A stretch of 64,000 nt of DNA from an uncultured Bacilli bacterium (GCA_947632395.1 CANRPA010000002.1:1844-65843); one strand, 5' to 3'. Positions 1,040-43,391 are shown, counted from the stretch's first letter. Notes: generated from the sequence alone by a model not told the origin. Made by a program: numbers and translations.

Positions 1040-2137
1040 TTATAAATTTAAATCTATAAAGTTTACAATTATATCATTAGAAACATATATATAGTCTGAA
1101 TTTATATATATGTTTTTTTCATCTTCCAACAATTTATTTTCTTTAAGTAAAGTATTTACTATATCTATACTCTTTATATCTAAATTATATTTTTCTTTAA
1201 ATGATAATTTATTTATTCCTTTTATTTTTCTAAACCCTAATATAAATTCATTTTCTATCTTTTCTTTTTTTTCTACTAAATGTTTATCTTTCACATAGTT
1301 ACCTTTTAAATATTCATTTAATCCCCTAGTATTATCATATCTTACATTATCTATATAACCAGAGGCGCCCATACCAAATCCATAATACTCTTCGTTGTTC
1401 CAATATGTTAAATTATGTTTAGATTGATATCCAGGTTTAGAAAAATTACTAACTTCATAATGATTATATCCATTTTTTTCTAGTTTTTTACATATTAATT
1501 TATACATATCATAGTCTATATATTCATCTATATTTTCTGTATTATCTATATATAATTTTGTATTAGGCTCTATTATAAGTGAATATGTTGAAATATGACT
1601 TATATCCAATTTCAAAAATAAATCTAAATCATTATTTAATTCCTCTATAGTTTGATTTTTTAAAGCATATATTAAATCTATATTTATATTTTTAAAACCT
1701 ATAGTTTTTGCTATAGATATTTTATCACTTACCATCTTTACATCATGTTTTCTATTTAAATATTTTAAATATTTTTCACTAAATGCTTGTATACCTATAC
1801 TTAACCTATTAACTCCATTTTTGTATAATAATTCTAATTTTTCTTTAGTTATATTTTCTATATTGCACTCGAAAGTAAATTCTATTGTTTCACTAAATTT
1901 TAATATTTTTAATATATTAAATAATTTATTTAACTGTTCTATAGAAAGAGAACTAGGTGTACCACCACCTATATATATAGTATCTAATACTTCACCTTTA
2001 TATTTTCCTTTTATTTCTTTTTCTAAGGCATTTAAATATAAATTTATCCACTCATTATTTTTTAATAATTTACAAAAATCACAATAACTACAAATAGAAT
2101 CACAAAAAGGAATATGTATATATGCTGATTTAATCAT
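1040..2137 (-). CDS. hemW: radical SAM heme chaperone / coproporphyrinogen-III-oxidase-like protein HemW
   Basis: N-terminal IHIPFCDSICSYCDF radical-SAM CxxxCxxC motif, 365 aa, HemN/HemW architecture. Lies next to lepA as in many Firmicutes. Confidence 0.85.
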   Translation of the reverse strand: MIKSAYIHIPFCDSICSYCDFCKLLKNNEWINLYLNALEKEIKGKYKGEVLDTIYIGGGTPSSLSIEQLNKLFNILKILKFSETIEFTFECNIENITKEKLELLYKNGVNRLSIGIQAFSEKYLKYLNRKHDVKMVSDKISIAKTIGFKNINIDLIYALKNQTIEELNNDLDLFLKLDISHISTYSLIIEPNTKLYIDNTENIDEYIDYDMYKLICKKLEKNGYNHYEVSNFSKPGYQSKHNLTYWNNEEYYGFGMGASGYIDNVRYDNTRGLNEYLKGNYVKDKHLVEKKEKIENEFILGFRKIKGINKLSFKEKYNLDIKSIDIVNTLLKENKLLEDEKNIYINSDYIYVSNDIIVNFIDLNL

Positions 2138-2610
2138 TATTTAAATTTTCCTTGTTTATCTCTTTCTTGATTTTCATATGTATTATTGCCTTTTTTCAAA
2201 TTATTCATGCTATTTTGTTTTAATTTTTTAGATATTTCATTTAATGTTTCTTTACTTATATTAGGAATTTTTGGAAGTCTTTCAGCTAAATCTCTATATA
2301 TTTGACTTTCACTTACATGAATAATTTTTGATATTTCATTTAAGGTATATCCTTTTTTAAATAAATCTAATTCATTTATTATTCTTGTTTTTGTTTCATC
2401 TTTATCTAATGTTAGATTATGACTATCTAATATTTTTTTTATTTCATTATATCTTGGATCTTCTTTTGGTAATTTATTATTCATGTAATGTGATACTGTA
2501 TAATTACTGACATTAAAATGCTTAGCTGCATCTCTTATTGAACATTTTGTTTCAATTATGTAATCTGCTATATTACGCGCTAATTTATCTATTTCTTCTT
2601 CTGTTCTCAT
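2137..2610 (-). CDS. SpoIIID-family transcription regulator with two tandem HTH modules
   Basis: Residues 12-66 ([54 protein letters not shown]) parallel B. subtilis SpoIIID (YIVETKKTVRVIAKEFGVSKSTVHKDLTERLPEINP..VKEILDYH). A second copy follows: [33 protein letters not shown] overlap with lepA stop, TAATG overlap with hemW start. Confidence 0.6.
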
Positions 2611-14441: not shown

Positions 14442-14780
14442 TTATTTACACTTATATCCATAACTTTCATACTTTTCTTTTGTACTTTTTTTATCTTTAT
14501 CAATTTTTATATCTCCAATTAAGTTTGATGTTATAACATTTTTTTCCAATTTTAAATTATATTCTTCTTTATATTCATCGATATCTTCAAAATATTCTCT
14601 AGCACTCTCTTCATTATTAAATATCATTTTATCTATTTCCTCATATGTATTATTTTTATAATTAAATATTATTTTATTATGTATTTTTATATCCTCGTAA
14701 TCTTCTTTATAATTACATTCTAATTTTTTAGAACAACCACATAATGTTATTAACAAAAATAATAATATAATTTTTTTCAT
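14442..14780 (-). CDS. small lipoprotein, unknown function
   Basis: MKKIILLFLLITLCGCSKK: signal peptide with lipobox LCGC. 112 aa, acidic/lysine-rich mature part. Confidence 0.7.
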   Translation of the reverse strand: MKKIILLFLLITLCGCSKKLECNYKEDYEDIKIHNKIIFNYKNNTYEEIDKMIFNNEESAREYFEDIDEYKEEYNLKLEKNVITSNLIGDIKIDKDKKSTKEKYESYGYKCK

Positions 14781-14830
14781 ACTACCACCCTATTTAATAT
14801 TATGAAAAAGATAAAGCAATAATTACTACT

Positions 14831-15994
14831 TTATCTTAAAATCATATATATGAGTGCACCAACAAATATTAATGTCATTATTATTCCGTTTATTATATCT
14901 GATTTAGTACTTTTATATTTAACACCTACTGCCATTGAAAGCAATACACCTCCAACAAGTCCACCTATGTGCGCTAAATTATTAATACTTGTAATCATAA
15001 ATCCAATCATTAAGTTTAATAATATAAGAGGTATTATTTGACTCTTCATAACACCACTTAGATATACTCTATAATGATATCCAAAGTAAACTAATGAACC
15101 TAATAAACCAAATATTGCTCCACTAGCACCCACGGATATATAAGTATCTTGTAAAAATGCTAGTGTAAGTAAATTACCTATAATTCCACTACCTATAAAT
15201 ATTACACTATATTTTACTTTACCAAAAAAACTTTCAAGTTGTGGCCCTATTACATATAAAGAATACATATTACATAATAAATGTAAAATTCCTCCGTGTA
15301 AAAATATAGATGTAACGAGTCTATACAATTCTAGATTATTATTCATAGAATTTAAATTTACTAAAGCACCAAATTTATACAATACATTAGGGTCTAGTTC
15401 TATAAAATTACCAGATTCTAAAAATGTAAGGACAAAAAGTACTAAACTAATAGCCATAAAAATATATGTCATAATAGGTTTCTTTTTAGAAAAAACTTTT
15501 TCTGCCTTTTTAGTTTCTTCCATATTTTTTTGGTTTATTTCGTCTGTTAATTTTATAAATAATTCTAAACCTTCTCCAGTTGTATTTTCTATTTCTAATA
15601 TATTAGGAAATTCATTTATTATAAATGAATATTTTTTTAAATCCTCTACATCATTTATTTCTGCACACTTTATATTGTCATAATCTTTATTTTCTAAGTT
15701 TACATTTTCACCTAAATTAACAAATATTGAAAGTGTTTGCATTTTTATAGAAAACATTTTATTCTTTATTCTTTTTAATATTTGTTTTGTTCTAAATATA
15801 TCAAAATCTAATTGTTCATCATTATGTATATAACCAGAAACTATTCTTATTATTTTATAATCGGCATCTGAATTTTCTAGCCATATTTCATCTTTAGCAC
15901 CGTGTAAAACAACAGGATTGTAATTTGCTTCCGTTATAAAATAATGAAGTAATTTCATTATAATTTCATCATTTTTATTTAAAGTAATATTCAT
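14831..15994 (-). CDS. gluP: rhomboid intramembrane serine protease with cytoplasmic N-terminal domain (GluP/YqgP-like)
   Basis: Rhomboid motifs HGGILHLLCNM, GASGAIFGL (catalytic Ser) and AHIGGL (catalytic His). N-terminal GAKDEIWLENSD resembles the YqgP N-domain. Confidence 0.8.
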   Translation of the reverse strand: MNITLNKNDEIIMKLLHYFITEANYNPVVLHGAKDEIWLENSDADYKIIRIVSGYIHNDEQLDFDIFRTKQILKRIKNKMFSIKMQTLSIFVNLGENVNLENKDYDNIKCAEINDVEDLKKYSFIINEFPNILEIENTTGEGLELFIKLTDEINQKNMEETKKAEKVFSKKKPIMTYIFMAISLVLFVLTFLESGNFIELDPNVLYKFGALVNLNSMNNNLELYRLVTSIFLHGGILHLLCNMYSLYVIGPQLESFFGKVKYSVIFIGSGIIGNLLTLAFLQDTYISVGASGAIFGLLGSLVYFGYHYRVYLSGVMKSQIIPLILLNLMIGFMITSINNLAHIGGLVGGVLLSMAVGVKYKSTKSDIINGIIMTLIFVGALIYMILR

Positions 15995-16057
15995 AATAAA
16001 TCACCTCAAGCAATTAATATTTTAATACATTTATCATAATATGTAAAGAGGTGCCAT

Positions 16058-16492
16058 ATGAAAAAAATTGTAAGATTTTTCATTTTTTTATTTTCTTGGT
16101 TTGTAGGAATGATTATATTTAAATGGAATTCACTATTCTTTAATAATTTAAATAAACCAAGTTTTTCCTTAAGTTTAAATACTATTAAATTTATTTTAAT
16201 TTTTATTTATATATTAGTTTCTATAAGCATTTATTTAACAAAAGAAAAAACTTTTGAATATAAGAAAATACTAATTATAAATTATTTTTCTAATCAAGTA
16301 TTTCCATTTTTATTTTTTACATTAGAAAGTATTATCTTAGGTGTTATATCTATTTTTTCTATATTAATTAGTTCTATATTTTTGTATTATGAATCAAGAT
16401 CTAGTAAAGTATCTTCAAAATTGTTTATACCTTACATATTATTTAATTTATATTTATGTATTTTACTTATATTTATATTTTTTATGAATTAA
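16058..16492 (+). CDS. tspO: TspO/MBR family membrane protein
   Basis: 144 aa, 5 predicted TM. L.KPSF, LINYFSNQVF and SKVSSKLFIPY parallel Bacillus TspO (LEKPSW, LLNYIFNQAF, SKVSAWLLIPY). Confidence 0.65.
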   Translation: MKKIVRFFIFLFSWFVGMIIFKWNSLFFNNLNKPSFSLSLNTIKFILIFIYILVSISIYLTKEKTFEYKKILIINYFSNQVFPFLFFTLESIILGVISIFSILISSIFLYYESRSSKVSSKLFIPYILFNLYLCILLIFIFFMN

Positions 16493-16515
16493 AAAAGAGA
16501 AAAATTAATTTCTCT
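16491..16515 (-). terminator. intrinsic terminator closing the bacteriocin operon
   Basis: Minus strand agagaaaa-ttaa-ttttctct (plus 16496-16515) followed by TTTTT (plus a-run 16491-16495). Overlaps the stop codon of the last small ORF. Confidence 0.5.
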
Positions 16516-16675
16516 ATGTATTCCCATTACCAATAACTCTTATATATGTACCAGCAGTTCTTCCTGCCTGAATTACAAAATCCAACATATAATTAACAAG
16601 CGTTAACCAAAAAGGAATTGTTATTATTAATATAGTTGGCAATAAATATTTTTTTAATTTTAAATTCTTATTCAT
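16514..16675 (-). CDS. 53-aa single-TM protein, candidate bacteriocin immunity protein
   Basis: Hand translation: MNKNLKLKKYLLPTILIITIPFWLTLVNYMLDFVIQAGRTAGTYIRVIGNGNT. Last ORF before the terminator. No GG leader and no clear SD, so the weakest call in the locus. Confidence 0.4.
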   Translation of the reverse strand: MNKNLKLKKYLLPTILIITIPFWLTLVNYMLDFVIQAGRTAGTYIRVIGNGNT

Positions 16676-16681
16676 ATTATA

Positions 16682-16798
16682 CTATATAAAAGCACGAAAT
16701 AGTTTACTTAATGTAGTTTTAATATAGTAAACTAACTTTGATATATAAATACATCCACCATCTATATTTAATAATTCATTATTTTTTAATTCTACCAT
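16682..16798 (-). CDS. double-glycine-leader peptide C (38 aa): short cationic bacteriocin or pheromone-like peptide
   Basis: Hand translation: MVELKNNELLNIDGG|CIYISKLVYYIKTTLSKLFRAFI. Leader is hydrophobic at -4/-7/-12 and ends in GG. GGTGGA SD just upstream. Not in ORF track (<60 aa). Confidence 0.7.
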   Translation of the reverse strand: MVELKNNELLNIDGGCIYISKLVYYIKTTLSKLFRAFI

Positions 16799-16808
16799 AT
16801 TCCACCTA

Positions 16809-16976
16809 CTAAACCTTACAAACGTTTCCACTAATTGTTCTTCTAATTGCTGAACCTAGACTTTTACCTAAATCTATTATAACAGTGATTGCACGTGTCA
16901 CTGCATTTATAAGTGTTGCGCTAATTGTTGCTCCTCCAACTACATCTAATAATTCTTCTTTTCTTAATTCTACCAT
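16809..16976 (-). CDS. double-glycine-leader bacteriocin precursor B (55 aa)
   Basis: Hand translation: MVELRKEELLDVVGG|ATISATLINAVTRAITVIIDLGKSLGSAIRRTISGNVCKV. GGAGGT SD (plus 16982-16987). GxxxG motif GKSLG. Confidence 0.8.
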   Translation of the reverse strand: MVELRKEELLDVVGGATISATLINAVTRAITVIIDLGKSLGSAIRRTISGNVCKV

Positions 16977-16985
16977 AATGACCTC

Positions 16986-17129
16986 CTAATAATTACACTT
17001 TAATGGTCTTACTAAACCATCGATAACTCCAATTATAAATGCTATACCTGCAGCTATTCCCGCAAGTATGCTAAAACTAAAACCACCGCCACTTATTTCT
17101 TTTAATTCTTCATTAGTTAAATTTTTCAT
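16986..17129 (-). CDS. double-glycine-leader bacteriocin precursor A (47 aa)
   Basis: Codon-by-codon hand translation: MKNLTNEELKEISGG|GFSFSILAGIAAGIAFIIGVIDGLVRPLKCNY. GGAG SD. GxxxG motifs G9-G13 and G19-G23 of the mature part. Confidence 0.8.
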   Translation of the reverse strand: MKNLTNEELKEISGGGFSFSILAGIAAGIAFIIGVIDGLVRPLKCNY

Positions 17130-17508
17130 ATTTTAATTTTTCTCCTTTTCTAATTAGTGTATTAAATATACTTTTTTTACTTGATATATTTACAAGCAAT
17201 ACATTGTTATCATATTTTATATCATCTTCTAAATTTAATTTTAATATATACCTGTCTTCTAATTTTTTGATTATTTTAAAATCATATAATTTGTTGTTTA
17301 TATACAATTTTTTATTTGAAAGATCACTATTTGTATACAATATTAAAACAAAATTATGATTCATATTTTTAATAACGCCACCATAACTTTTAATGATATT
17401 TATTGGTATAAAACTTAAGATTATTAATGCTAAAGGAATATATTGAGTAAAAGTTAAAATTATATGCGCAATATTATAAATCATTAAATTATCCATTTTT
17501 ATAAACAT
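17113..17508 (-). CDS. 131-aa membrane-anchored protein: candidate minimal export accessory or immunity protein
   Basis: GGAGGAG SD 6 nt before the ATG, inside the end of the ABC gene. N-terminal hydrophobic segment(s), then a beta-rich domain. Sits where HlyD-type accessory or immunity genes sit in class II loci. 3' end overlaps peptide A start by 17 nt. Confidence 0.6.
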   Translation of the reverse strand: MFIKMDNLMIYNIAHIILTFTQYIPLALIILSFIPINIIKSYGGVIKNMNHNFVLILYTNSDLSNKKLYINNKLYDFKIIKKLEDRYILKLNLEDDIKYDNNVLLVNISSKKSIFNTLIRKGEKLKYEKFN

Positions 17509-19561
17509 TTTTTACTCCTCCTTTTTCTATTTTTACTAGATTATCAAATAAATCTAAATTGTCTAATCTATGAGAAATCATTATTATAGTTTTGTCCTTG
17601 TATACTTTAAATAATTTTTTCAAGATTTTTCTTTCTAAATCTACATCTACTTGACTTAATCCTTCATCAATTATAAGAATATTAAATGATTTTAAAAGAC
17701 TTCTTGCGAGGATTATTCTTTGTTTCTCACCTCCAGATAAATTAAATCCATTTTCTTCTATAAGCATATTAAATCCTAAATTGTTATCAATTATTTCATT
17801 TAAACAACATATATCTTTTACTATATCAAGATTTTTTGAATTACTACCATCAAAAATTAAATTATTATAAAGTGTATCATTAAATAAAATTTCATTTTGA
17901 CTTATATAAAGGATATTATTATTAATAGTATCAACTTTATATTTATTTAAATCTATATTATTTATAAATATACAATTATCATTTATATTATAATATTTCA
18001 TTAATATTTTAAATAAAGTACTTTTACCACTACCACTTTTTCCTACTACCATTACTTTAGAATTCTTTTTAATTTTTAAATTTATATTTTTTAATATATA
18101 ATCCCTATCATTATAAGTATAATTAGTGTTTTTAAATTCTATATCGCCATTTTCAAAGTTAATAATACTTCCAAACTCATCTTTTTTATAAGTTACTATA
18201 TCAAGTACTCTTCTGAGAGAATTTTTAGCTTCTTTTATAGTATTATCTAAATCGATAATATTTTTTATTGGTTCTAAAAAGTATATAAGAAGTGATGAAA
18301 AAGTAAAAAGTTCTCCCAATGTAAGTTTACCATCTAAAACTAAAATACATCCTATTAGCATTATAAATATAAAACCTATATTATTTATAACATCTTTTAA
18401 TAAATTTTGTTTAAAATAAACTTTTTGAAATTTAAATATATCATTTACAAACTTTTTATACTTAGTTTCAAATTTATTTATTACACTACCTTCTAAATGT
18501 AATCCTTTAATAGTTTCAAATCCACCAATAGATTCTACCATATATGAATTTGTTTCACCTTTTTTTATTTGTATCTTTTTTACATAATCATTAAATAATT
18601 TTCTAAATAAAACTATTATAATAAAATATAAAATTAATATGGCTAGTCCAATTAAAAATAGTATTTTATTTATTAGAAATAAAACTATTAATGATATAAA
18701 CGTAAGTGGTAAATCTATAAAAAGTGATAAAGATACTCTGCTAATCATTTCTCTTATATTATCTAAGTCATTTATTCTAGATATTACATCTCCTGTTGTT
18801 CTATTTTTGTAGTAGTAATAAGGAAGTTTTATAATTTTATTATAAATATCTAAAGTGAGTGCAAAATCAAGTTTTTGATTAATTAAAGCAAGAAATTTAT
18901 TTCTAAAATAATCTAATACTATTTTAAAAATGTATATAAGGAAAAATGTATAAAAAACTTTAAATAAATATTTTTTAGAAAATAAATTAACACCATTAAT
19001 CATATACTCTGTGTAAAAACTTGTTAATATAGATAAAACAGTTATAAAAATTGATAAAATAAAGATTGATAATAAAATTTTTTTAAATGGGGTTATTAAG
19101 TCTTTTACAAATTTTAAAAGTGAAATATCTTTTTCCATGGGTAAATTCTTTATGGGGTAACCAGTTATTAATACTTCATTAAAAATTTCGTTAAACTGTT
19201 CAAATGACATTTTCTTTACTTTATCTGCGGGATCTCCTATAATTAAATATTTTTTATCAAAGTTAATTTCATATATTACTACAAAGTGTTTATAGGATTT
19301 ATCAATTATAACGTTTGCTATACAAGGTAATTGAATATTAATAATATCTTTTAATTCGCATCTAATTCCCTTTGACTCAAAGCCCAAGTTAATTAAAGTT
19401 TCCTTTAAATGATATGCAGTTGTTCCTTCTTTATTTGTTTTTGTCATATCAATTAAGGTATTTTTGCGTACGTGGCCACCATAATATTTAATTATCATTT
19501 GTAAACAAGCTACTCCACAATCTTTAACTTCATCTTGCAGAACAATTGAATATTTTTTTAT
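17489..19561 (-). CDS. bacteriocin-processing ABC exporter with N-terminal C39 peptidase domain (ComA/LagD type)
   Basis: C39 His/Asp context (KHFVVIYEI, IIGDPAD), 6-TM ABC domain, Walker A GKSGSGKST, signature LSGGEKQR, Walker B ILIIDE. The first ATG (19498) would omit the catalytic Cys motif QDEVKDCGVACLQ, which is encoded in frame upstream. 5' end placed at ATA 19559-19561, 7 nt after GGAGG. Confidence 0.85.
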   Translation of the reverse strand: MKKYSIVLQDEVKDCGVACLQMIIKYYGGHVRKNTLIDMTKTNKEGTTAYHLKETLINLGFESKGIRCELKDIINIQLPCIANVIIDKSYKHFVVIYEINFDKKYLIIGDPADKVKKMSFEQFNEIFNEVLITGYPIKNLPMEKDISLLKFVKDLITPFKKILLSIFILSIFITVLSILTSFYTEYMINGVNLFSKKYLFKVFYTFFLIYIFKIVLDYFRNKFLALINQKLDFALTLDIYNKIIKLPYYYYKNRTTGDVISRINDLDNIREMISRVSLSLFIDLPLTFISLIVLFLINKILFLIGLAILILYFIIIVLFRKLFNDYVKKIQIKKGETNSYMVESIGGFETIKGLHLEGSVINKFETKYKKFVNDIFKFQKVYFKQNLLKDVINNIGFIFIMLIGCILVLDGKLTLGELFTFSSLLIYFLEPIKNIIDLDNTIKEAKNSLRRVLDIVTYKKDEFGSIINFENGDIEFKNTNYTYNDRDYILKNINLKIKKNSKVMVVGKSGSGKSTLFKILMKYYNINDNCIFINNIDLNKYKVDTINNNILYISQNEILFNDTLYNNLIFDGSNSKNLDIVKDICCLNEIIDNNLGFNMLIEENGFNLSGGEKQRIILARSLLKSFNILIIDEGLSQVDVDLERKILKKLFKVYKDKTIIMISHRLDNLDLFDNLVKIEKGGVKNVYKNG

Positions 19562-19711
19562 ATTATCACCTCCTCACCTATATTATTCCATGCTGATATA
19601 TCTATTTCCTTTTTTTATCATGAAAAAAATTTAAAAAAATGAAATTTCTCTCATTTTTTGCTATTAAATTTATATTTTAAATAAAAAAAAATTTAGATAA
19701 TTAAATCTAAA

Positions 19712-20128
19712 TTAATATAATTTTACAAATACACTAGTATCTTTTATTTTAAATTTTTTACTTTTATAAAATTCTTGAGCATCTGTTCTATGATTACCTG
19801 ATGTAATCTCTACATAATTTATCTTATTTTCTTTTACCATTTCTTCTACTTTTTCAAATAGTTTTGATGCATAACCATTCTTTCTATAATCTTTAAGTAC
19901 TCCAAAATAAGACAAGTGATAATATTTTTCATTTTTAATATATTCAAAATATTCTTCTACAACTACTGAAGCAATAACTTTATTATCATCTTTTATTACT
20001 AATACTTTATGTTTTTTCATTAATTTTTCTATTAATTCTTGTTTAATATCATAATCAAATGTTTCCTTTATATATTCAATATAACTTTTTATATCTTTTT
20101 TCTTTAATGTTTCTACTTTTTTATCCAT
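19712..20128 (-). CDS. GNAT family N-acetyltransferase
   Basis: 138 aa. Acetyl-CoA binding region YFGVLKDYRKNGYASKLFEKVEE (R/Q-x-x-G-x-A pattern). Confidence 0.75.
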   Translation of the reverse strand: MDKKVETLKKKDIKSYIEYIKETFDYDIKQELIEKLMKKHKVLVIKDDNKVIASVVVEEYFEYIKNEKYYHLSYFGVLKDYRKNGYASKLFEKVEEMVKENKINYVEITSGNHRTDAQEFYKSKKFKIKDTSVFVKLY

Positions 20129-20784: not shown

Positions 20785-21045
20785 ATGGAAACACTTAAAG
20801 TTGGGACTAAATCAAATCCTAATTCAGTTGCAGGAGCTTTAGCTAATGTATTCAGAGAAAAAGGTAGTGTAGAAATACAAGCAATAGGAGCTGGCGCACT
20901 TAATCAAGCTATTAAAGCTATTGCAATTGCAAGAGGATTTGTTGCTCCATCTGGTAAAAATTTAGTATGCATCCCTGCATTCACCGATATTGTAATTGAT
21001 GGTGATGAGAGAACTGCTATTAAATTAATTGTAGAAGCTAAATAG
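20785..21045 (+). CDS. spoVS: stage V sporulation protein S
   Basis: 86 aa. METLKVGTKSNPNSVAGALA...IQAIGAGALNQAIKAIAIARGF is near-canonical SpoVS. Confidence 0.95.
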   Translation: METLKVGTKSNPNSVAGALANVFREKGSVEIQAIGAGALNQAIKAIAIARGFVAPSGKNLVCIPAFTDIVIDGDERTAIKLIVEAK

Positions 21046-33413: not shown

Positions 33414-35087
33414 TTATTTTATGAGTTTTTTCTGATTTTTTATTTTATTTATTGCTTTATCATGTATTTCAATAATTCTTTTTATAGTTAAGTGAGTTTT
33501 TCTACTTATTTCTTCAATAGATTCTCGTTCTTCTGTTATGCCGTAAAGTTTTTTTAATAAACTTTGTTCTAGAAGAGTTAAAATTTCACTATCAATATTA
33601 TTTTCTAGAAGACTTAAAGTGATATATTCTGTCTGTTTAGGTGAAATTTTTATTACTGGATCATCATTATCATATATATATACGGCAAGTTGATTTTTTT
33701 CACCAAAATTTAATAATTTTTCTATTGCTTTACCATGAATTTGTCTAATACGTTCCCTTGTTTTATTATATTTTTTACCAATTTCTGTAAAATTTTTAGG
33801 ATATGTTTTGATTCCATAATATTCAATCAATACTAATATTTCCATTTCACTTAATTTTGCTTTATGACAAATATTTAATATATCACTTTGTAAAAATTTT
33901 TGTTCTGCCTTTGTTTCAACAGATTCATCGTCTGAAGGTATAAGATCTCCAAATTCATCAGAATTTTCACCACAATCCAAAGGTTCATTTAAACTTACAA
34001 TATCCTGCATAGCATTATTTATTTCATCTACAGTTGTAACAGGTATATTCATAGCTTCTGCAATTTCTTCAGTTGTTGGTTCACGATTTAACTTTGCTTC
34101 TAATTCTATTCTTGTTTTATCTATTTTATTTTTTGTACTATATACATAAAAGGGCAATCTAATAATTTTACCATTTCTTTTAATTGATGAATTTATAGAC
34201 TGTCTAATCCACCATACTGCATATGTTGAAAATTTATAACCTTTACTTACATCAAATTTTTCTACTGCTCTTATAAGTCCTAAATTTCCCTCACTTATCA
34301 AATCTAAAAATTGAAGACTTCCATGATATTTATTAAGAAAATTTTTTGCAATACTAACTACAATTCTTAAATTATGTTTTATTAGTAATTCTTTAGCTGT
34401 TTCATCACCACTATTATATCTATTAAATAATTCTACTTCTTGCTCTTTTGTTAATAATGGATATTTAATAATTTCACTAAAATACATCTGTTCAAGTTCA
34501 ACTGAAAATGATAAATCATTGTCTTCAATATCATATTCATATATTTCATTAATGGTACAATATGCATCAATAAGTAGTGAAAATAATTCATTATTAAACA
34601 TATCATTAATTTCACCTGATTTTATTAATTCAATATTTTTTTCAACTATTATTTTAAGTAAATTGTTAATTTTTTCTTCTTTTAATAATTTTTCACATTC
34701 GCTAAATTTTGGTTTATGTCCAGTTTGATCAAAAAATACACATAATTTATTCATTTGAACGAGTGCAGAATCATATGAATTTACTAATTCTATATTACTA
34801 TCTATAAAAGACTTTAATAAATTATTTCTATTTTTTTTATTTATGTGCAAATTAAAATAATTGCTAATCTCTTTTTCAAAATATTCTTTAAATGATATGC
34901 CACTATTTATATTAAAACTTGTAATACATTCTCTTATTACTTCAAGTGATATTTTTTTTAATTTTGCAGGATTTATTGTTTTTTTATTTTCACCAAATAC
35001 TTTATCAATTACTGGAGTAAGCAATTCATACAATTCATTAAGTGAATATGAATTTAAATTTGCATCATATATTTTTTCTTGATCCAT
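33414..35087 (-). CDS. sigma-70 family RNA polymerase sigma factor with long N-terminal region and extra C-terminal region-4-like HTH
   Basis: Region 2 ([37 protein letters not shown]), region 3, region 4.2 ([26 protein letters not shown]), then a second copy-like segment ([26 protein letters not shown]). 557 aa. Confidence 0.8.
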
Positions 35088-42923: not shown

Positions 42924-43391
42924 TTAGCTTTGTTCATCTAATTCCTCTTTTGGTTCTGCTGTTTCAAGTTCATCTCCATAGACATAAGTACAACCATCTA
43001 TAGATTCTGGATCAACTTCATATGTAGTGACTATTTTACCCCTTTTATTAATTATTGTTGATATTTTAAATTTTAAATCTTCAGGAATTTCTTCATTTGT
43101 TTTTGGATCAATTATTTCAGAATCTATTAATCCATCATCTTTTAAATCTTTTAAAGTTAAATATGAGCAATTATCAACTTCAGGTAATTTATCTAAATTA
43201 TCTGACCCCCAAATTTCTACAGTAGACTTAAGTGCGATTAATTGTGTATTATGTAAGTCTTCTTTTGAATCATTTAATATCTTTGTAACTGAAGTTGCTG
43301 TTATTGAAACTAAAGCAGCAAGTATTACTATAACTGCTAATAACTCTATCAAGGTAAATCCCTTTTTATTCATATAATCATCTACTTTCAC
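42924..43391 (-). CDS. type IV pilin / ComGC-like pseudopilin (orphan)
   Basis: Prepilin signal KKG|FTLIELLAVIVILAAL (class III signal peptide with Glu+5). Acidic C-terminus. Start may be the internal ATG at 43373 (MNKKGFTLIE). Confidence 0.75.
   Translation of the reverse strand: MKVDDYMNKKGFTLIELLAVIVILAALVSITATSVTKILNDSKEDLHNTQLIALKSTVEIWGSDNLDKLPEVDNCSYLTLKDLKDDGLIDSEIIDPKTNEEIPEDLKFKISTIINKRGKIVTTYEVDPESIDGCTYVYGDELETAEPKEELDEQS

What the first reader, a model, noticed from the sequence alone, without database searches (positions are those of the whole stretch)
16491..19575. Unannotated double-glycine bacteriocin operon: C39-ABC exporter, mini accessory protein, three GG-leader peptides, small TM ORF
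The ORF track is empty on the minus strand between 16493 and 17112. Hand translation there gives three consecutive small ORFs, each with its own SD and a textbook double-glycine leader (hydrophobic at -4/-7/-12, GG at -2/-1):
- A: MKNLTNEELKEISGG|GFSFSILAGIAAGIAFIIGVIDGLVRPLKCNY
- B: MVELRKEELLDVVGG|ATISATLINAVTRAITVIIDLGKSLGSAIRRTISGNVCKV
- C: MVELKNNELLNIDGG|CIYISKLVYYIKTTLSKLFRAFI
A and B carry the GxxxG motifs typical of two-peptide (class IIb) bacteriocins. Directly upstream on the same strand are a C39-peptidase ABC exporter and a 131-aa membrane protein. Downstream are a 53-aa single-TM ORF (possible immunity protein) and a terminator hairpin. This is the only obviously accessory module in the window. 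I do not recognise the mature peptide sequences as any named bacteriocin.
Basis: partly seen in the sequence, partly recalled or inferred. Interest (0 to 1): 0.7.

Follow-up and report, generated by a model that had tools for sequence, protein, structure and literature searches.

The report
Conserved two-peptide bacteriocin export operon
An uncultured, very AT-rich gut bacterium carries an intact operon that should export and cleave two (here three) small membrane-active peptides, most likely a two-part antibacterial toxin, and its probable self-protection protein looks like a membrane-anchored copy of one of the toxin peptides.

Summary
On the minus strand, 16514-19561 holds one tightly packed operon: a C39-peptidase ABC exporter, a 131-aa single-TM protein, three peptides with exact 15-residue double-glycine leaders (A, B, C) and a 53-aa TM protein.

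Corrections and additions:
- The exporter starts at ATA 19561, not ATG 19498. Only then does it contain the catalytic Cys. ATA/ATT at this position is conserved in six related species.
- The locus is not a mobile accessory island. The same operon sits next to the same GNAT gene in at least 11 related gut "Bacilli" MAG species, and its GC content matches the flanks.
- Peptides A and B are always paired. Each has an invariant GxxxG motif and one invariant C-terminal Cys. Peptide C occurs only in the window's own subclade.
- The 53-aa protein is a paralogue of mature peptide B, with the leader replaced by a membrane anchor (hhalign P 4e-7; shuffle z about 14).
- The 131-aa protein belongs to the periphery of the Mycoplasma "MAG1140" family. 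It has a weak membrane-fusion-protein-like fold.

Best reading: an uncharacterised class IIb-type bacteriocin system. It is a new member of a known kind. Antimicrobial activity is untested.

The parts
19583..19610 (-). Promoter-like box AGGAAAT-N12-ATGGAATAA. It matches the sigma-H type consensus RNAGGAWWW / RNNGAATWW and lies 8 nt upstream of the SD.
   Evidence: Pattern search: 4 sites in the window vs 0.86 expected, and this is the only intergenic one. The AAGGA box is invariant at a fixed distance from the SD in 12 species, and GAAT is kept in 8 of 12. The same motif sits at the orthologous site in L001, L008, L009 and L023-25. Consensus taken from PMC8510167. The function is inferred.
19566..19575 (-). 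Shine-Dalgarno GAGGAGGTGA, 4 nt before the ATA start
   Evidence: Read directly from the sequence. Invariant in all 12 aligned species.
17489..19561 (-). Peptidase-containing ABC transporter (PCAT), 690 aa, starting at ATA 19559-19561. Motifs: Gln9, Cys15, His92, Asp110; Walker A at 507, signature at 608, Walker B at 629, H-loop at 662.
   Evidence: Pfam C39, ABC_membrane and ABC_tran. Best NCBIfam match is TIGR01193, 428.6 bits. PCAT1 (4RY2) matches at E 2e-111, aligned from residue 2 and including the catalytic Cys. The start-codon column is ATA/ATT/ATG/GTG across species. The 20 codons upstream of the internal ATG are open and under purifying selection. Motif positions.
17113..17508 (-). 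131-aa bitopic membrane protein (N-terminal TM helix plus a beta-rich extracytoplasmic domain). It overlaps the ABC stop by 20 nt and the pepA start by 17 nt. Candidate mini accessory protein.
   Evidence: No Pfam or NCBIfam hit for the window protein itself. 9 of 14 orthologues hit NF045999 'MAG1140 family', and L011 passes the cut-off (37 vs 35 bits). AF2 models have pLDDT 62 and 71. Foldseek hits are not significant, but about 20 of the top 50 are membrane-fusion proteins.
16986..17129 (-). pepA precursor (47 aa): leader MKNLTNEELKEISGG, mature GFSFSILAGIAAGIAFIIGVIDGLVRPLKCNY (32 aa, 3296.9 Da average mass)
   Evidence: The motif G.[IVL]DG..RPL.C occurs in 117 of the 120 best relatives, and 118 of 120 have exactly one Cys.
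16809..16976 (-). pepB precursor (55 aa): leader MVELRKEELLDVVGG, mature ATISATLINAVTRAITVIIDLGKSLGSAIRRTISGNVCKV (40 aa, 4097.8 Da, charge +3.8 at pH 7)
   Evidence: D35, G37, S39, G41, R45, R46 and C53 are invariant in 12 species.
16682..16798 (-). pepC precursor (38 aa): leader MVELKNNELLNIDGG, mature CIYISKLVYYIKTTLSKLFRAFI (23 aa, 2784.4 Da, charge +3.7 at pH 7, amphipathic)
   Evidence: Present only in the window, L009 and L023/24/25. TIGR03949 score is 20.1, below the 21.5 cut-off.
16514..16675 (-). 53-aa protein: K-rich N-terminus plus TM anchor, followed by a pepB-like domain (G38xxxG42, I45, R46). Candidate immunity protein.
   Evidence: hhalign of the pepB family vs this family: probability 93%, P 4e-7, 36 columns. 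My control: score 34.5 vs 8.2 +/- 1.8 (max 15.2) for 200 column shuffles. No similarity to the pepA family. Conserved directly after pepB in 11 of 11 species where the region is complete.
16490..16515 (-). Weak intrinsic-terminator-like hairpin AGAGAAA-UUAAUU-UUUCUCU plus U6. It overlaps the stop codon of the 53-aa gene and faces the convergent TspO gene.
   Evidence: RNA fold of the 48-nt stretch around the hairpin gives -7.9 kcal/mol, z -1.94. Not found by the consensus scan, which needs at least 3 GC pairs.

Best explanation
This is a self-contained, chromosomally conserved class IIb-type (two-peptide) bacteriocin operon of an uncultured low-GC gut 'Bacilli' lineage.

Proposed mechanism, step by step:
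1. Transcription starts at a dedicated promoter between the GNAT gene and the exporter, possibly of sigma-H type (inferred).
2. The exporter is translated from a non-canonical AUA codend behind a strong SD. This would keep exporter levels low relative to the peptides. The start position is shown by sequence and conservation; the effect on expression level is inferred.
3. The PCAT recognises the 15-residue double-glycine leaders of pepA, pepB and pepC. It cleaves after GG with its Gln9/Cys15/His92/Asp110 site and exports the mature peptides (inferred from homology to PCAT1 and ComA).
4. The 131-aa bitopic protein, translationally coupled to the exporter, acts with it as a minimal accessory or adaptor (weakly supported).
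5. Outside the cell, the hydrophobic A peptide and the cationic amphipathic B peptide pair through their invariant GxxxG motifs and permeabilise related bacteria (inferred from class IIb precedent). Their single invariant C-terminal cysteines may also pair (speculative).
6. The 53-aa protein is a membrane-anchored paralogue of mature B that keeps B's GxxxG-IR motif. It protects the producer, plausibly by occupying A, or the A/B receptor, as a tethered decoy. The paralogy is shown; the function is inferred.
7. pepC is a lineage-specific extra GG peptide, either a third toxin component or a signal.
For: - Gene content and translations.
- C39, ABC_membrane and ABC_tran domains. PCAT1 E 2e-111 and ComA E 4e-95, with the catalytic residues aligned.
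- Intact ATPase motifs.
- pepA passes the TIGR01847 and TIGR03949 cut-offs.
- Leaders match the GG consensus exactly.
- A and B are strictly co-occurring and adjacent in 12 species. GxxxG is invariant in both, and each has one invariant Cys.
- The small TM gene always lies directly after, or overlapping, pepB. It is homologous to mature pepB.
- Overlapping or closely spaced genes indicate one transcription unit.
- Two hairpin-plus-T-run structures separate the operon from the GNAT gene (read from the sequence).
- All class IIb criteria that can be read from sequence are met (PMC2850506).
- NCBI and JGI name pepA relatives as class IIb bacteriocins.
Against: - No experimental data exist for any member. 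No paper in the library contains the motif strings.
- pepB, pepC, the 53-aa protein and the window's 131-aa protein match no curated family.
- pepA clears TIGR03949 by under 1 bit, largely through its leader and Gly-rich region.
- The exporter scores below the TIGR01193 cut-off (428.6 vs 523.85 bits).
- The operon is vertically conserved with the same peptide pair over deep divergence. This is atypical for bacteriocin loci, which are usually strain-variable, and could point to another physiological role.
- The AUA start predicts very low exporter synthesis.
- The 53-aa gene has no SD.
- The fold match of the accessory protein to MFPs is not statistically significant (E at least 0.05).
Confidence: 0.65

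Rival explanations
1. The peptides are not toxins. They would be exported membrane-active or signalling peptides with a housekeeping or developmental role in this lineage, for example cell-cell signalling or a stationary-phase or sporulation-linked function. On this view the 53-aa protein is a membrane partner or receptor subunit rather than an immunity factor.
For: - Deep vertical conservation at a fixed chromosomal position, with the same A/B pair in at least 11 species.
- A conserved sigma-H-like promoter box.
- Sporulation-type genes (SpoVS, SpoIIID-like) in the window.
- pepC evolves fast, as pheromones do.
Against: - No histidine kinase or response regulator near the operon, or in the inspected parts of the window.
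- Mature A and B are 32 and 40 aa long and very hydrophobic or amphipathic, with GxxxG motifs. This is typical of pore-forming class IIb peptides and not of pheromones (PMC2850506).
- Pheromones usually diverge quickly, whereas A and B are highly conserved.
Confidence: 0.15
2. A and B are two independent one-peptide (class IId-like) bacteriocins, or only one of them is active, rather than an obligate two-peptide toxin. pepC would then be a third independent bacteriocin.
For: - Multi-bacteriocin loci served by one exporter are common (established knowledge of blp and pln loci).
- pepC has been added without a visible partner.
- Only pepA hits a bacteriocin family model.
Against: - A and B are never found apart in the 12 loci examined.
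- There is one candidate immunity gene for both, and it is related to B.
- Both peptides keep an invariant GxxxG motif and a single invariant Cys.
Confidence: 0.12
3. The locus is a decaying remnant. The exporter lost its ATG (ATG to ATA) and is no longer made, or is made without its peptidase Cys, so the peptides are not processed.
For: - There is no canonical in-frame start between the upstream stop and Met22.
- Gene callers report only the 669-aa truncated product.
- In L015 the accessory gene appears disrupted.
Against: - ATA, or ATT in L016, is kept at the same column in six species whose exporters are only 69-81% identical. The SD and spacing are invariant.
- The 20 upstream codons stay open, with synonymous changes at least as frequent as non-synonymous ones.
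- All catalytic and ATPase motifs and all downstream genes are intact.
Confidence: 0.05

Closest known systems
Class IIb two-peptide bacteriocins with all genes in one operon (lactococcin G type; review PMC2850506)
   Same: Two adjacent GG-leader peptide genes, GxxxG motifs in both peptides, a dedicated C39 ABC transporter, an accessory-protein gene and a small membrane immunity candidate in the same operon.
   Different: The mature sequences are unrelated to any named bacteriocin. There is no PDB hit and no paper contains the motif strings. The NF038034/NF038035 scores are below cut-off. The gene order is exporter first. The accessory protein is 131-150 aa, against roughly 450 aa for HlyD-type proteins (size from my own knowledge). 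The immunity candidate is a paralogue of the beta peptide. Each peptide has a single invariant Cys.
TIGR03949 'class IIb bacteriocin, lactobin A/cerein 7B family' (NCBIfam)
   Same: pepA scores 22.4 bits against a cut-off of 21.5. Relatives carry this name in NCBI and JGI records.
   Different: The match is marginal and mostly covers the leader plus the Gly-rich N-terminal part. The family-specific C-terminal motif G-x-I-D-G-x-x-R-P-L-x-C-N is not part of the lactobin A or cerein 7B sequences I know (my own knowledge). pepB does not match and pepC is below the cut-off.
PCAT1 of Clostridium thermocellum and ComA of Streptococcus (solved peptidase-containing ABC transporters)
   Same: Full-length homology (E 2e-111 and 4e-95). 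The Gln/Cys/His/Asp peptidase site and the ATPase motifs are conserved.
   Different: The gene begins with ATA/ATT in this clade. The score is below the TIGR01193 cut-off. The exporter is paired with a MAG1140-like mini protein.
Mycoplasma cassette: Mbov_0121-family peptidase ABC transporter (NF045998) plus MAG1140 family protein (NF045999)
   Same: The exporter hits NF045998 at E 3e-89. Orthologues of the 131-aa protein hit NF045999 over the full profile, and one is above the cut-off. This points to the same pairing of exporter and small bitopic protein.
   Different: The window's own proteins are below both cut-offs. No function is published for the Mycoplasma genes. I could not fetch a Mycoplasma locus to see whether GG peptides accompany them.
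CibAB/CibC of Streptococcus pneumoniae: a two-peptide bacteriocin plus small immunity protein under the competence sigma factor (from my own knowledge, not tested here)
   Same: Two GG peptides plus a small membrane immunity gene, transcribed from an alternative-sigma (sigma-H/ComX family) promoter. This may be analogous to the sigma-H-like box here.
   Different: No sequence relationship was tested. CibAB lacks its own exporter in the operon. The sigma-H assignment here is only a motif match.

Membership tests
Class IIb (two-peptide) bacteriocin system | Two different peptide genes next to each other in one operon | tested here: met
   pepA and pepB are 9 nt apart. They are adjacent in all 12 species.
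Class IIb (two-peptide) bacteriocin system | 15-30-residue double-glycine leader on both preforms | tested here: met
   Leaders are 15 aa with L-12, E-8, L-7, I/V-4 and GG. TIGR01847 is passed by pepA.
Class IIb (two-peptide) bacteriocin system | Dedicated ABC transporter with an N-terminal C39 peptidase that can cleave the leader | tested here: met
   Pfam domains are above cut-off. The Cys15/His92/Asp110 site is present if translation starts at ATA 19561. Cleavage itself is not testable here.
Class IIb (two-peptide) bacteriocin system | GxxxG (or GxxxG-like) motifs in both peptides | tested here: met
   A has G9xxxG13 and G19xxxG23; B has G22xxxG26. G34xxxG38 (A) and G37xxxG41 (B) are invariant across species.
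Class IIb (two-peptide) bacteriocin system | Immunity gene in the same operon | tested here: inconclusive
   A conserved 53-58-aa TM protein gene always follows pepB. It has no family match and its protective function is untested.
Class IIb (two-peptide) bacteriocin system | [quoted passage not shown] | not testable with these tools
   Needs peptide synthesis and activity assays.
TIGR03949 lactobin A/cerein 7B class IIb family | Score at or above the curated cut-off of 21.5 bits | tested here: met
   pepA scores 22.4 bits. pepC scores 20.1 bits (not met) and pepB has no hit.
TIGR01193 peptide cleavage/export ABC transporter | Score at or above the curated cut-off of 523.85 bits | tested here: not met
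   428.6 bits, although this is the best-scoring family and spans the full length. The three-domain architecture and catalytic residues are present.
HlyD-type bacteriocin accessory protein / membrane fusion protein | Sequence match to HlyD/MFP family models; TM anchor plus beta-barrel, lipoyl and coiled-coil domains | tested here: inconclusive
   No HlyD, MFP or TIGR01000 hit even at E up to 10. The protein is only 131-150 aa and has no coiled coil. In Foldseek, about 20 of the top 50 hits are MFPs (AcrA, MexA, BesA, CusB, Spr0693), but with E 0.09-0.6 and TMq 0.31-0.37.
NF045999 MAG1140 family protein | Score at or above the curated cut-off of 35 bits | tested here: inconclusive
   The window protein has no hit. 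The orthologue in L011 scores 37.0 bits, and 8 other orthologues score 12.9-27.8 bits over the full profile.
Three-component peptide-pheromone regulated bacteriocin locus (inducing peptide + HK + RR) | Histidine kinase and LytTR-type response regulator genes next to the GG peptide | tested here: not met
   The neighbours are GNAT, SufU-like, TspO and rhomboid genes. I saw no HK or RR among ORFs inspected from 1 to 45 kb.

The most novel reading that the evidence does not exclude
Immunity by molecular mimicry. The 53-aa protein would be a membrane-tethered decoy copy of the beta peptide (pepB). It keeps B's GxxxG-IR core and, in most species, B's C-terminal Cys-containing tail. It would neutralise incoming alpha peptide, or block the A/B receptor, at the producer's own surface, possibly through a disulfide. 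No class IIb immunity protein derived from its own toxin peptide is known to me.

In the subclade that lost this Cys (window, L009, L023), a new GG peptide (pepC) whose mature form begins with Cys has appeared. This hints at a thiol-dependent three-way interaction.
Probability: 0.3. Interest if true: 0.65.

Novelty: new member of a known kind. Interest (0 to 1): 0.42.

Why it matters
If active, this would be a large, so far uncharacterised two-peptide bacteriocin family. Over 1,300 database clusters match the pepA profile. It belongs to uncultured low-GC gut Bacilli of mice, rabbits, ruminants and humans, so it may be a determinant of competition among hard-to-culture gut bacteria and a source of narrow-spectrum antimicrobials.

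The locus also offers three testable side-questions:
- Can a toxin-derived, membrane-anchored paralogue confer immunity?
- What does a 130-150-aa 'mini' partner of a PCAT, shared with Mycoplasma, do?
- Why is an AUA/AUU start conserved on the exporter? This start makes automatic annotation report a peptidase-dead 669-aa protein.

Tried and rejected
- Consensus terminator scan found nothing. The hairpin exists only as a weak AT-rich stem.
- Rfam at gathering threshold gave no RNA family anywhere in the window, so there is no riboswitch or leader RNA explanation.
- PDB sequence searches with the pepA, pepB and accessory profiles gave only insignificant hits. The CtA leader peptide scored E 0.3-0.9.
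- The first AF2 model of the window's 131-aa protein (pLDDT 62) gave uninformative Foldseek hits. A second model from a relative (pLDDT 71) gave MFP-enriched but non-significant hits.
- A single-sequence search for the 131-aa protein (4 hits) and a profile search (19 hits) show that the family evolves too fast for deep alignments.
- phmmer of the 53-aa protein against 1.8 billion representatives found only 8 hits, and none was a GG peptide. The link to pepB is visible only profile-to-profile.
- pepC as a truncated pepB duplicate: the leaders co-vary within each genome, but the mature parts align poorly. Left open.
- Horizontal-island idea rejected: GC content matches the flanks and synteny is conserved.
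- Pheromone-regulated locus rejected for lack of an HK/RR pair.
- Literature searches for Mbov_0121/MAG1140 and for the motif strings gave nothing functional.
- One paper search failed on syntax.

Full report
**What is there**

On the minus strand, the ORF listing and the raw sequence show a compact gene string:
- ABC transporter, longest canonical ORF 17489-19498
- 131-aa ORF, 17113-17508
- pepA, 16986-17129
- pepB, 16809-16976
- pepC, 16682-16798
- 53-aa ORF, 16514-16675

The genes overlap (ABC/131-aa by 20 nt, 131-aa/pepA by 17 nt) or lie 6-10 nt apart. The 131-aa gene, pepA, pepB and pepC each have an SD, while the 53-aa gene has none. The flanks are a convergent TspO gene (16058-16492, +) and a GNAT acetyltransferase gene (19712-20128, -).

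Two hairpin-plus-T-run structures lie between the GNAT gene and the exporter (sequence). A weak 7-bp hairpin plus U6 overlaps the last stop codon (the consensus scan missed it).

**The exporter and its start codon**

Pfam finds Peptidase_C39, ABC_membrane and ABC_tran, all above cut-off. However, the C39 match of the 669-aa ORF begins at profile position 20, and the catalytic Cys is missing.

Reading upstream in frame gives IKKYSIVLQDEVKDCGVACLQ-M22. There is no ATG, GTG or TTG in this stretch. An ATA codon sits 4 nt behind a perfect SD (GAGGAGGTGA).

With this extension the protein (690 aa) aligns to PCAT1 (4RY2) from residue 2 at E 2e-111, and to ComA at E 4e-95. Gln9, Cys15, His92 and Asp110 and all ATPase motifs are in place.

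In related genomes the same alignment column varies:
- ATA in the window, L001, L023, L009, L008 and L011
- ATT in L016
- ATG in L010, L012, L013, L014 and L017
- GTG in L015

The SD is invariant throughout. The 20 codons between this column and Met22 stay open only in this frame, and they accumulate at least as many synonymous as non-synonymous differences.

I conclude that AUA/AUU is the real, conserved start. Gene callers report the truncated 669-aa product. That AUA lowers exporter synthesis is my inference from general knowledge of initiation-codon strength.

**The peptides**

All three leaders are 15 residues long with L-12, E-8, L-7, I/V-4 and GG. pepA passes the NCBIfam cut-offs for the GG leader (TIGR01847) and, narrowly, for TIGR03949 'class IIb bacteriocin, lactobin A/cerein 7B family'. 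pepB has no family. pepC is just below the cut-off.

| Peptide | Length | Character | GxxxG motifs |
|---|---|---|---|
| Mature A | 32 aa | very hydrophobic (GRAVY 1.34) | two |
| Mature B | 40 aa | cationic (charge +3.8), amphipathic | one |
| Mature C | 23 aa | cationic (charge +3.7), amphipathic | none |

(Values.)

A profile of pepA orthologues retrieves 1,336 database clusters at E <= 0.01. A few are named class IIb bacteriocins by NCBI or JGI. Of the best 120, 117 carry G-x-[IVL]-D-G-x-x-R-P-L-x-C and 118 have exactly one Cys. No solved structure and no paper in the library contains these sequences.

**Conservation and context**

A genome scan with the exporter found the same operon in at least 11 other species-level MAGs. 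These are labelled 'uncultured Bacilli', 'Tenericutes' or 'Clostridium sp.' and come from mouse, rabbit, roe-deer and Hadza human guts. Exporter identity is 49-81%.

In every complete locus the order is ABC, then a 131-150-aa TM protein, pepA, pepB and a 53-60-aa TM protein. Invariant residues:
- pepA: GG, G28, G34xxxG38, R41-P42-L43, C45
- pepB: D35, G37, S39, G41, R45, R46, C53

The GNAT gene directly upstream is conserved in L008, L010, L011, L016 and L023. Downstream, most relatives have rpsU-yqeY, whereas the window and L023/24 have TspO-rhomboid-hrcA.

GC content (0.18-0.26) does not differ from the flanks. The locus is therefore vertically inherited, not a recently acquired island. pepC exists only in the window, L009 and L023-25.

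**The 53-aa protein is a pepB paralogue**

A profile-profile comparison of the pepB family (A3) with the small TM family (A4) gives 93% probability and P 4e-7 over 36 columns. It aligns mature pepB residues 6-40 with the C-terminal two-thirds of the small protein. The pepA family shows nothing against A4.

In my own control the real hhalign score was 34.5. For 200 column-shuffled versions it was 8.2 +/- 1.8 (max 15.2), and for the reversed alignment 14.1.

Shared features:
- the GxxxG motif followed by (I/V)R
- in most species, a C-terminal tail with a single Cys (for example ...TICPF vs ...SICPV)

The protein thus looks like pepB with the cleavable leader swapped for a Lys-rich N-terminus plus a TM anchor. 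In species without pepC, its gene overlaps the 3' end of pepB by about 20 nt, which suggests translational coupling.

Its position is the canonical place of class II immunity genes (PMC2850506). I therefore read it as the immunity protein and propose a tethered-decoy mechanism (inference).

One curiosity: the three genomes that have pepC, whose mature peptide begins with Cys, are exactly those in which the small protein has lost its C-terminal Cys. This is a single evolutionary event, so it is only a hint.

**The 131-aa protein**

The window's copy has no Pfam or NCBIfam hit. However, 9 of 14 orthologues match NF045999 'MAG1140 family protein' over the full profile, and L011's copy is above the cut-off. 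The exporter also matches NF045998, the 'Mbov_0121 family peptidase domain-containing ABC transporter'. This suggests a conserved pairing shared with Mycoplasma. Nothing functional is published for either.

AF2 predicts an N-terminal TM helix and a 7-8-stranded beta domain (pLDDT 62 and 71). Foldseek finds no significant PDB match. With the better model, about 20 of the top 50 hits are membrane-fusion/adaptor proteins (AcrA, MexA, BesA, CusB, Spr0693) at probability 0.87-0.98 and TMq 0.31-0.37.

'Mini accessory protein' is therefore plausible but not established. No HlyD-family sequence signal exists.

**Regulation**

Upstream of the SD, 12 species share an invariant AAGGA(A/T)(A/T)T box. In 8 of them, 11-12 nt further on, there is RNNGAAT(A/T)(A/T). 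This matches the sigma-H consensus RNAGGAWWW/RNNGAATWW quoted in PMC8510167.

The combined pattern occurs 4 times in the window against 0.86 expected. Only this site is intergenic, and it recurs at the orthologous position in relatives.

This is a lead for stationary-phase or sporulation-linked (or competence-like) control. It is reminiscent of ComX-driven cibABC in pneumococci (my own knowledge). No HK/RR pair is nearby.

**Verdict**

The system meets every sequence-testable criterion of class IIb bacteriocin loci. Activity, synergy and immunity remain untested.

It is a new, widespread but uncharacterised member of a known kind. Its unusual details are a toxin-derived immunity candidate, a MAG1140-like mini partner and a conserved AUA start. 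Together these make it moderately interesting.

Noticed in passing
window 19559-19561 (-); same column in L001, L008, L009, L011, L016, L023: The exporter gene uses a conserved non-canonical start (ATA; ATT in L016) behind an invariant strong SD. More distant relatives have ATG or GTG at the same column. Automatic gene calls therefore give a 669-aa product lacking the catalytic Cys.
   Followed up: yes
window 19583-19610 (-); alignment A9: A conserved AAGGAWWT-N11-12-RNNGAATWW box matches the sigma-H promoter consensus. It lies immediately upstream of the operon's SD, which would leave a very short 5' leader.
   Followed up: partly
window 19633-19711 (-): Two successive hairpin-plus-T-run structures lie between the GNAT stop and the operon promoter: TTTAGAT/ATCTAAA + T9 and AAAATGA/TCATTTT + T7. 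The second is kept with compensatory changes in L016 (AAATGTGAAA/TTTCACATTT).
   Followed up: no
L015:2421-2854: In this relative there is no intact ORF for the 131-150-aa accessory protein between the exporter and pepA. The peptides and the small TM gene are intact. This may be a natural knock-out of the accessory gene.
   Followed up: no
L008, L010-L012, L014, L016, L017 downstream of the operon vs window 14442-16492: Most relatives have rpsU (S21)-yqeY right after the operon. The window and L023/24 instead have TspO, rhomboid, a lipoprotein and hrcA-grpE-dnaK. This is a rearrangement with its breakpoint exactly at the operon's 3' end.
   Followed up: partly
P0070, P0089 (57 aa, tails): Two 57-aa pepA relatives (presumably P0070 and P0089, the only 57-aa hits) carry a C-terminal extension (NWWKGGNYGNFK) after the otherwise terminal Cys-Asn.
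   Followed up: no
window 20785-21045 (+), 2137-2610 (-), 42924-43391 (-), 33414-35087 (-): SpoVS, a SpoIIID-like regulator, a ComGC-type pseudopilin (MNKKGFTLIELLAVIVILA...) and a 557-aa sigma-70-family protein with a long N-terminal extension. This suggests the roughly 22% GC 'Bacilli' MAG lineage keeps sporulation- and competence-type genes.
   Followed up: no
window 1-64000: No Rfam family reaches its gathering score anywhere in the 64 kb (no riboswitch, T-box, tRNA or sRNA model hit), despite about 46 long genes.
   Followed up: no
window 16514-16675 vs 16682-16798; L009, L023: The small TM protein has a C-terminal Cys in all 9 species lacking pepC (and in P0140, P0141, P0144 and P0146). 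It lacks that Cys in the 3 genomes that have pepC, whose mature peptide starts with Cys.
   Followed up: partly
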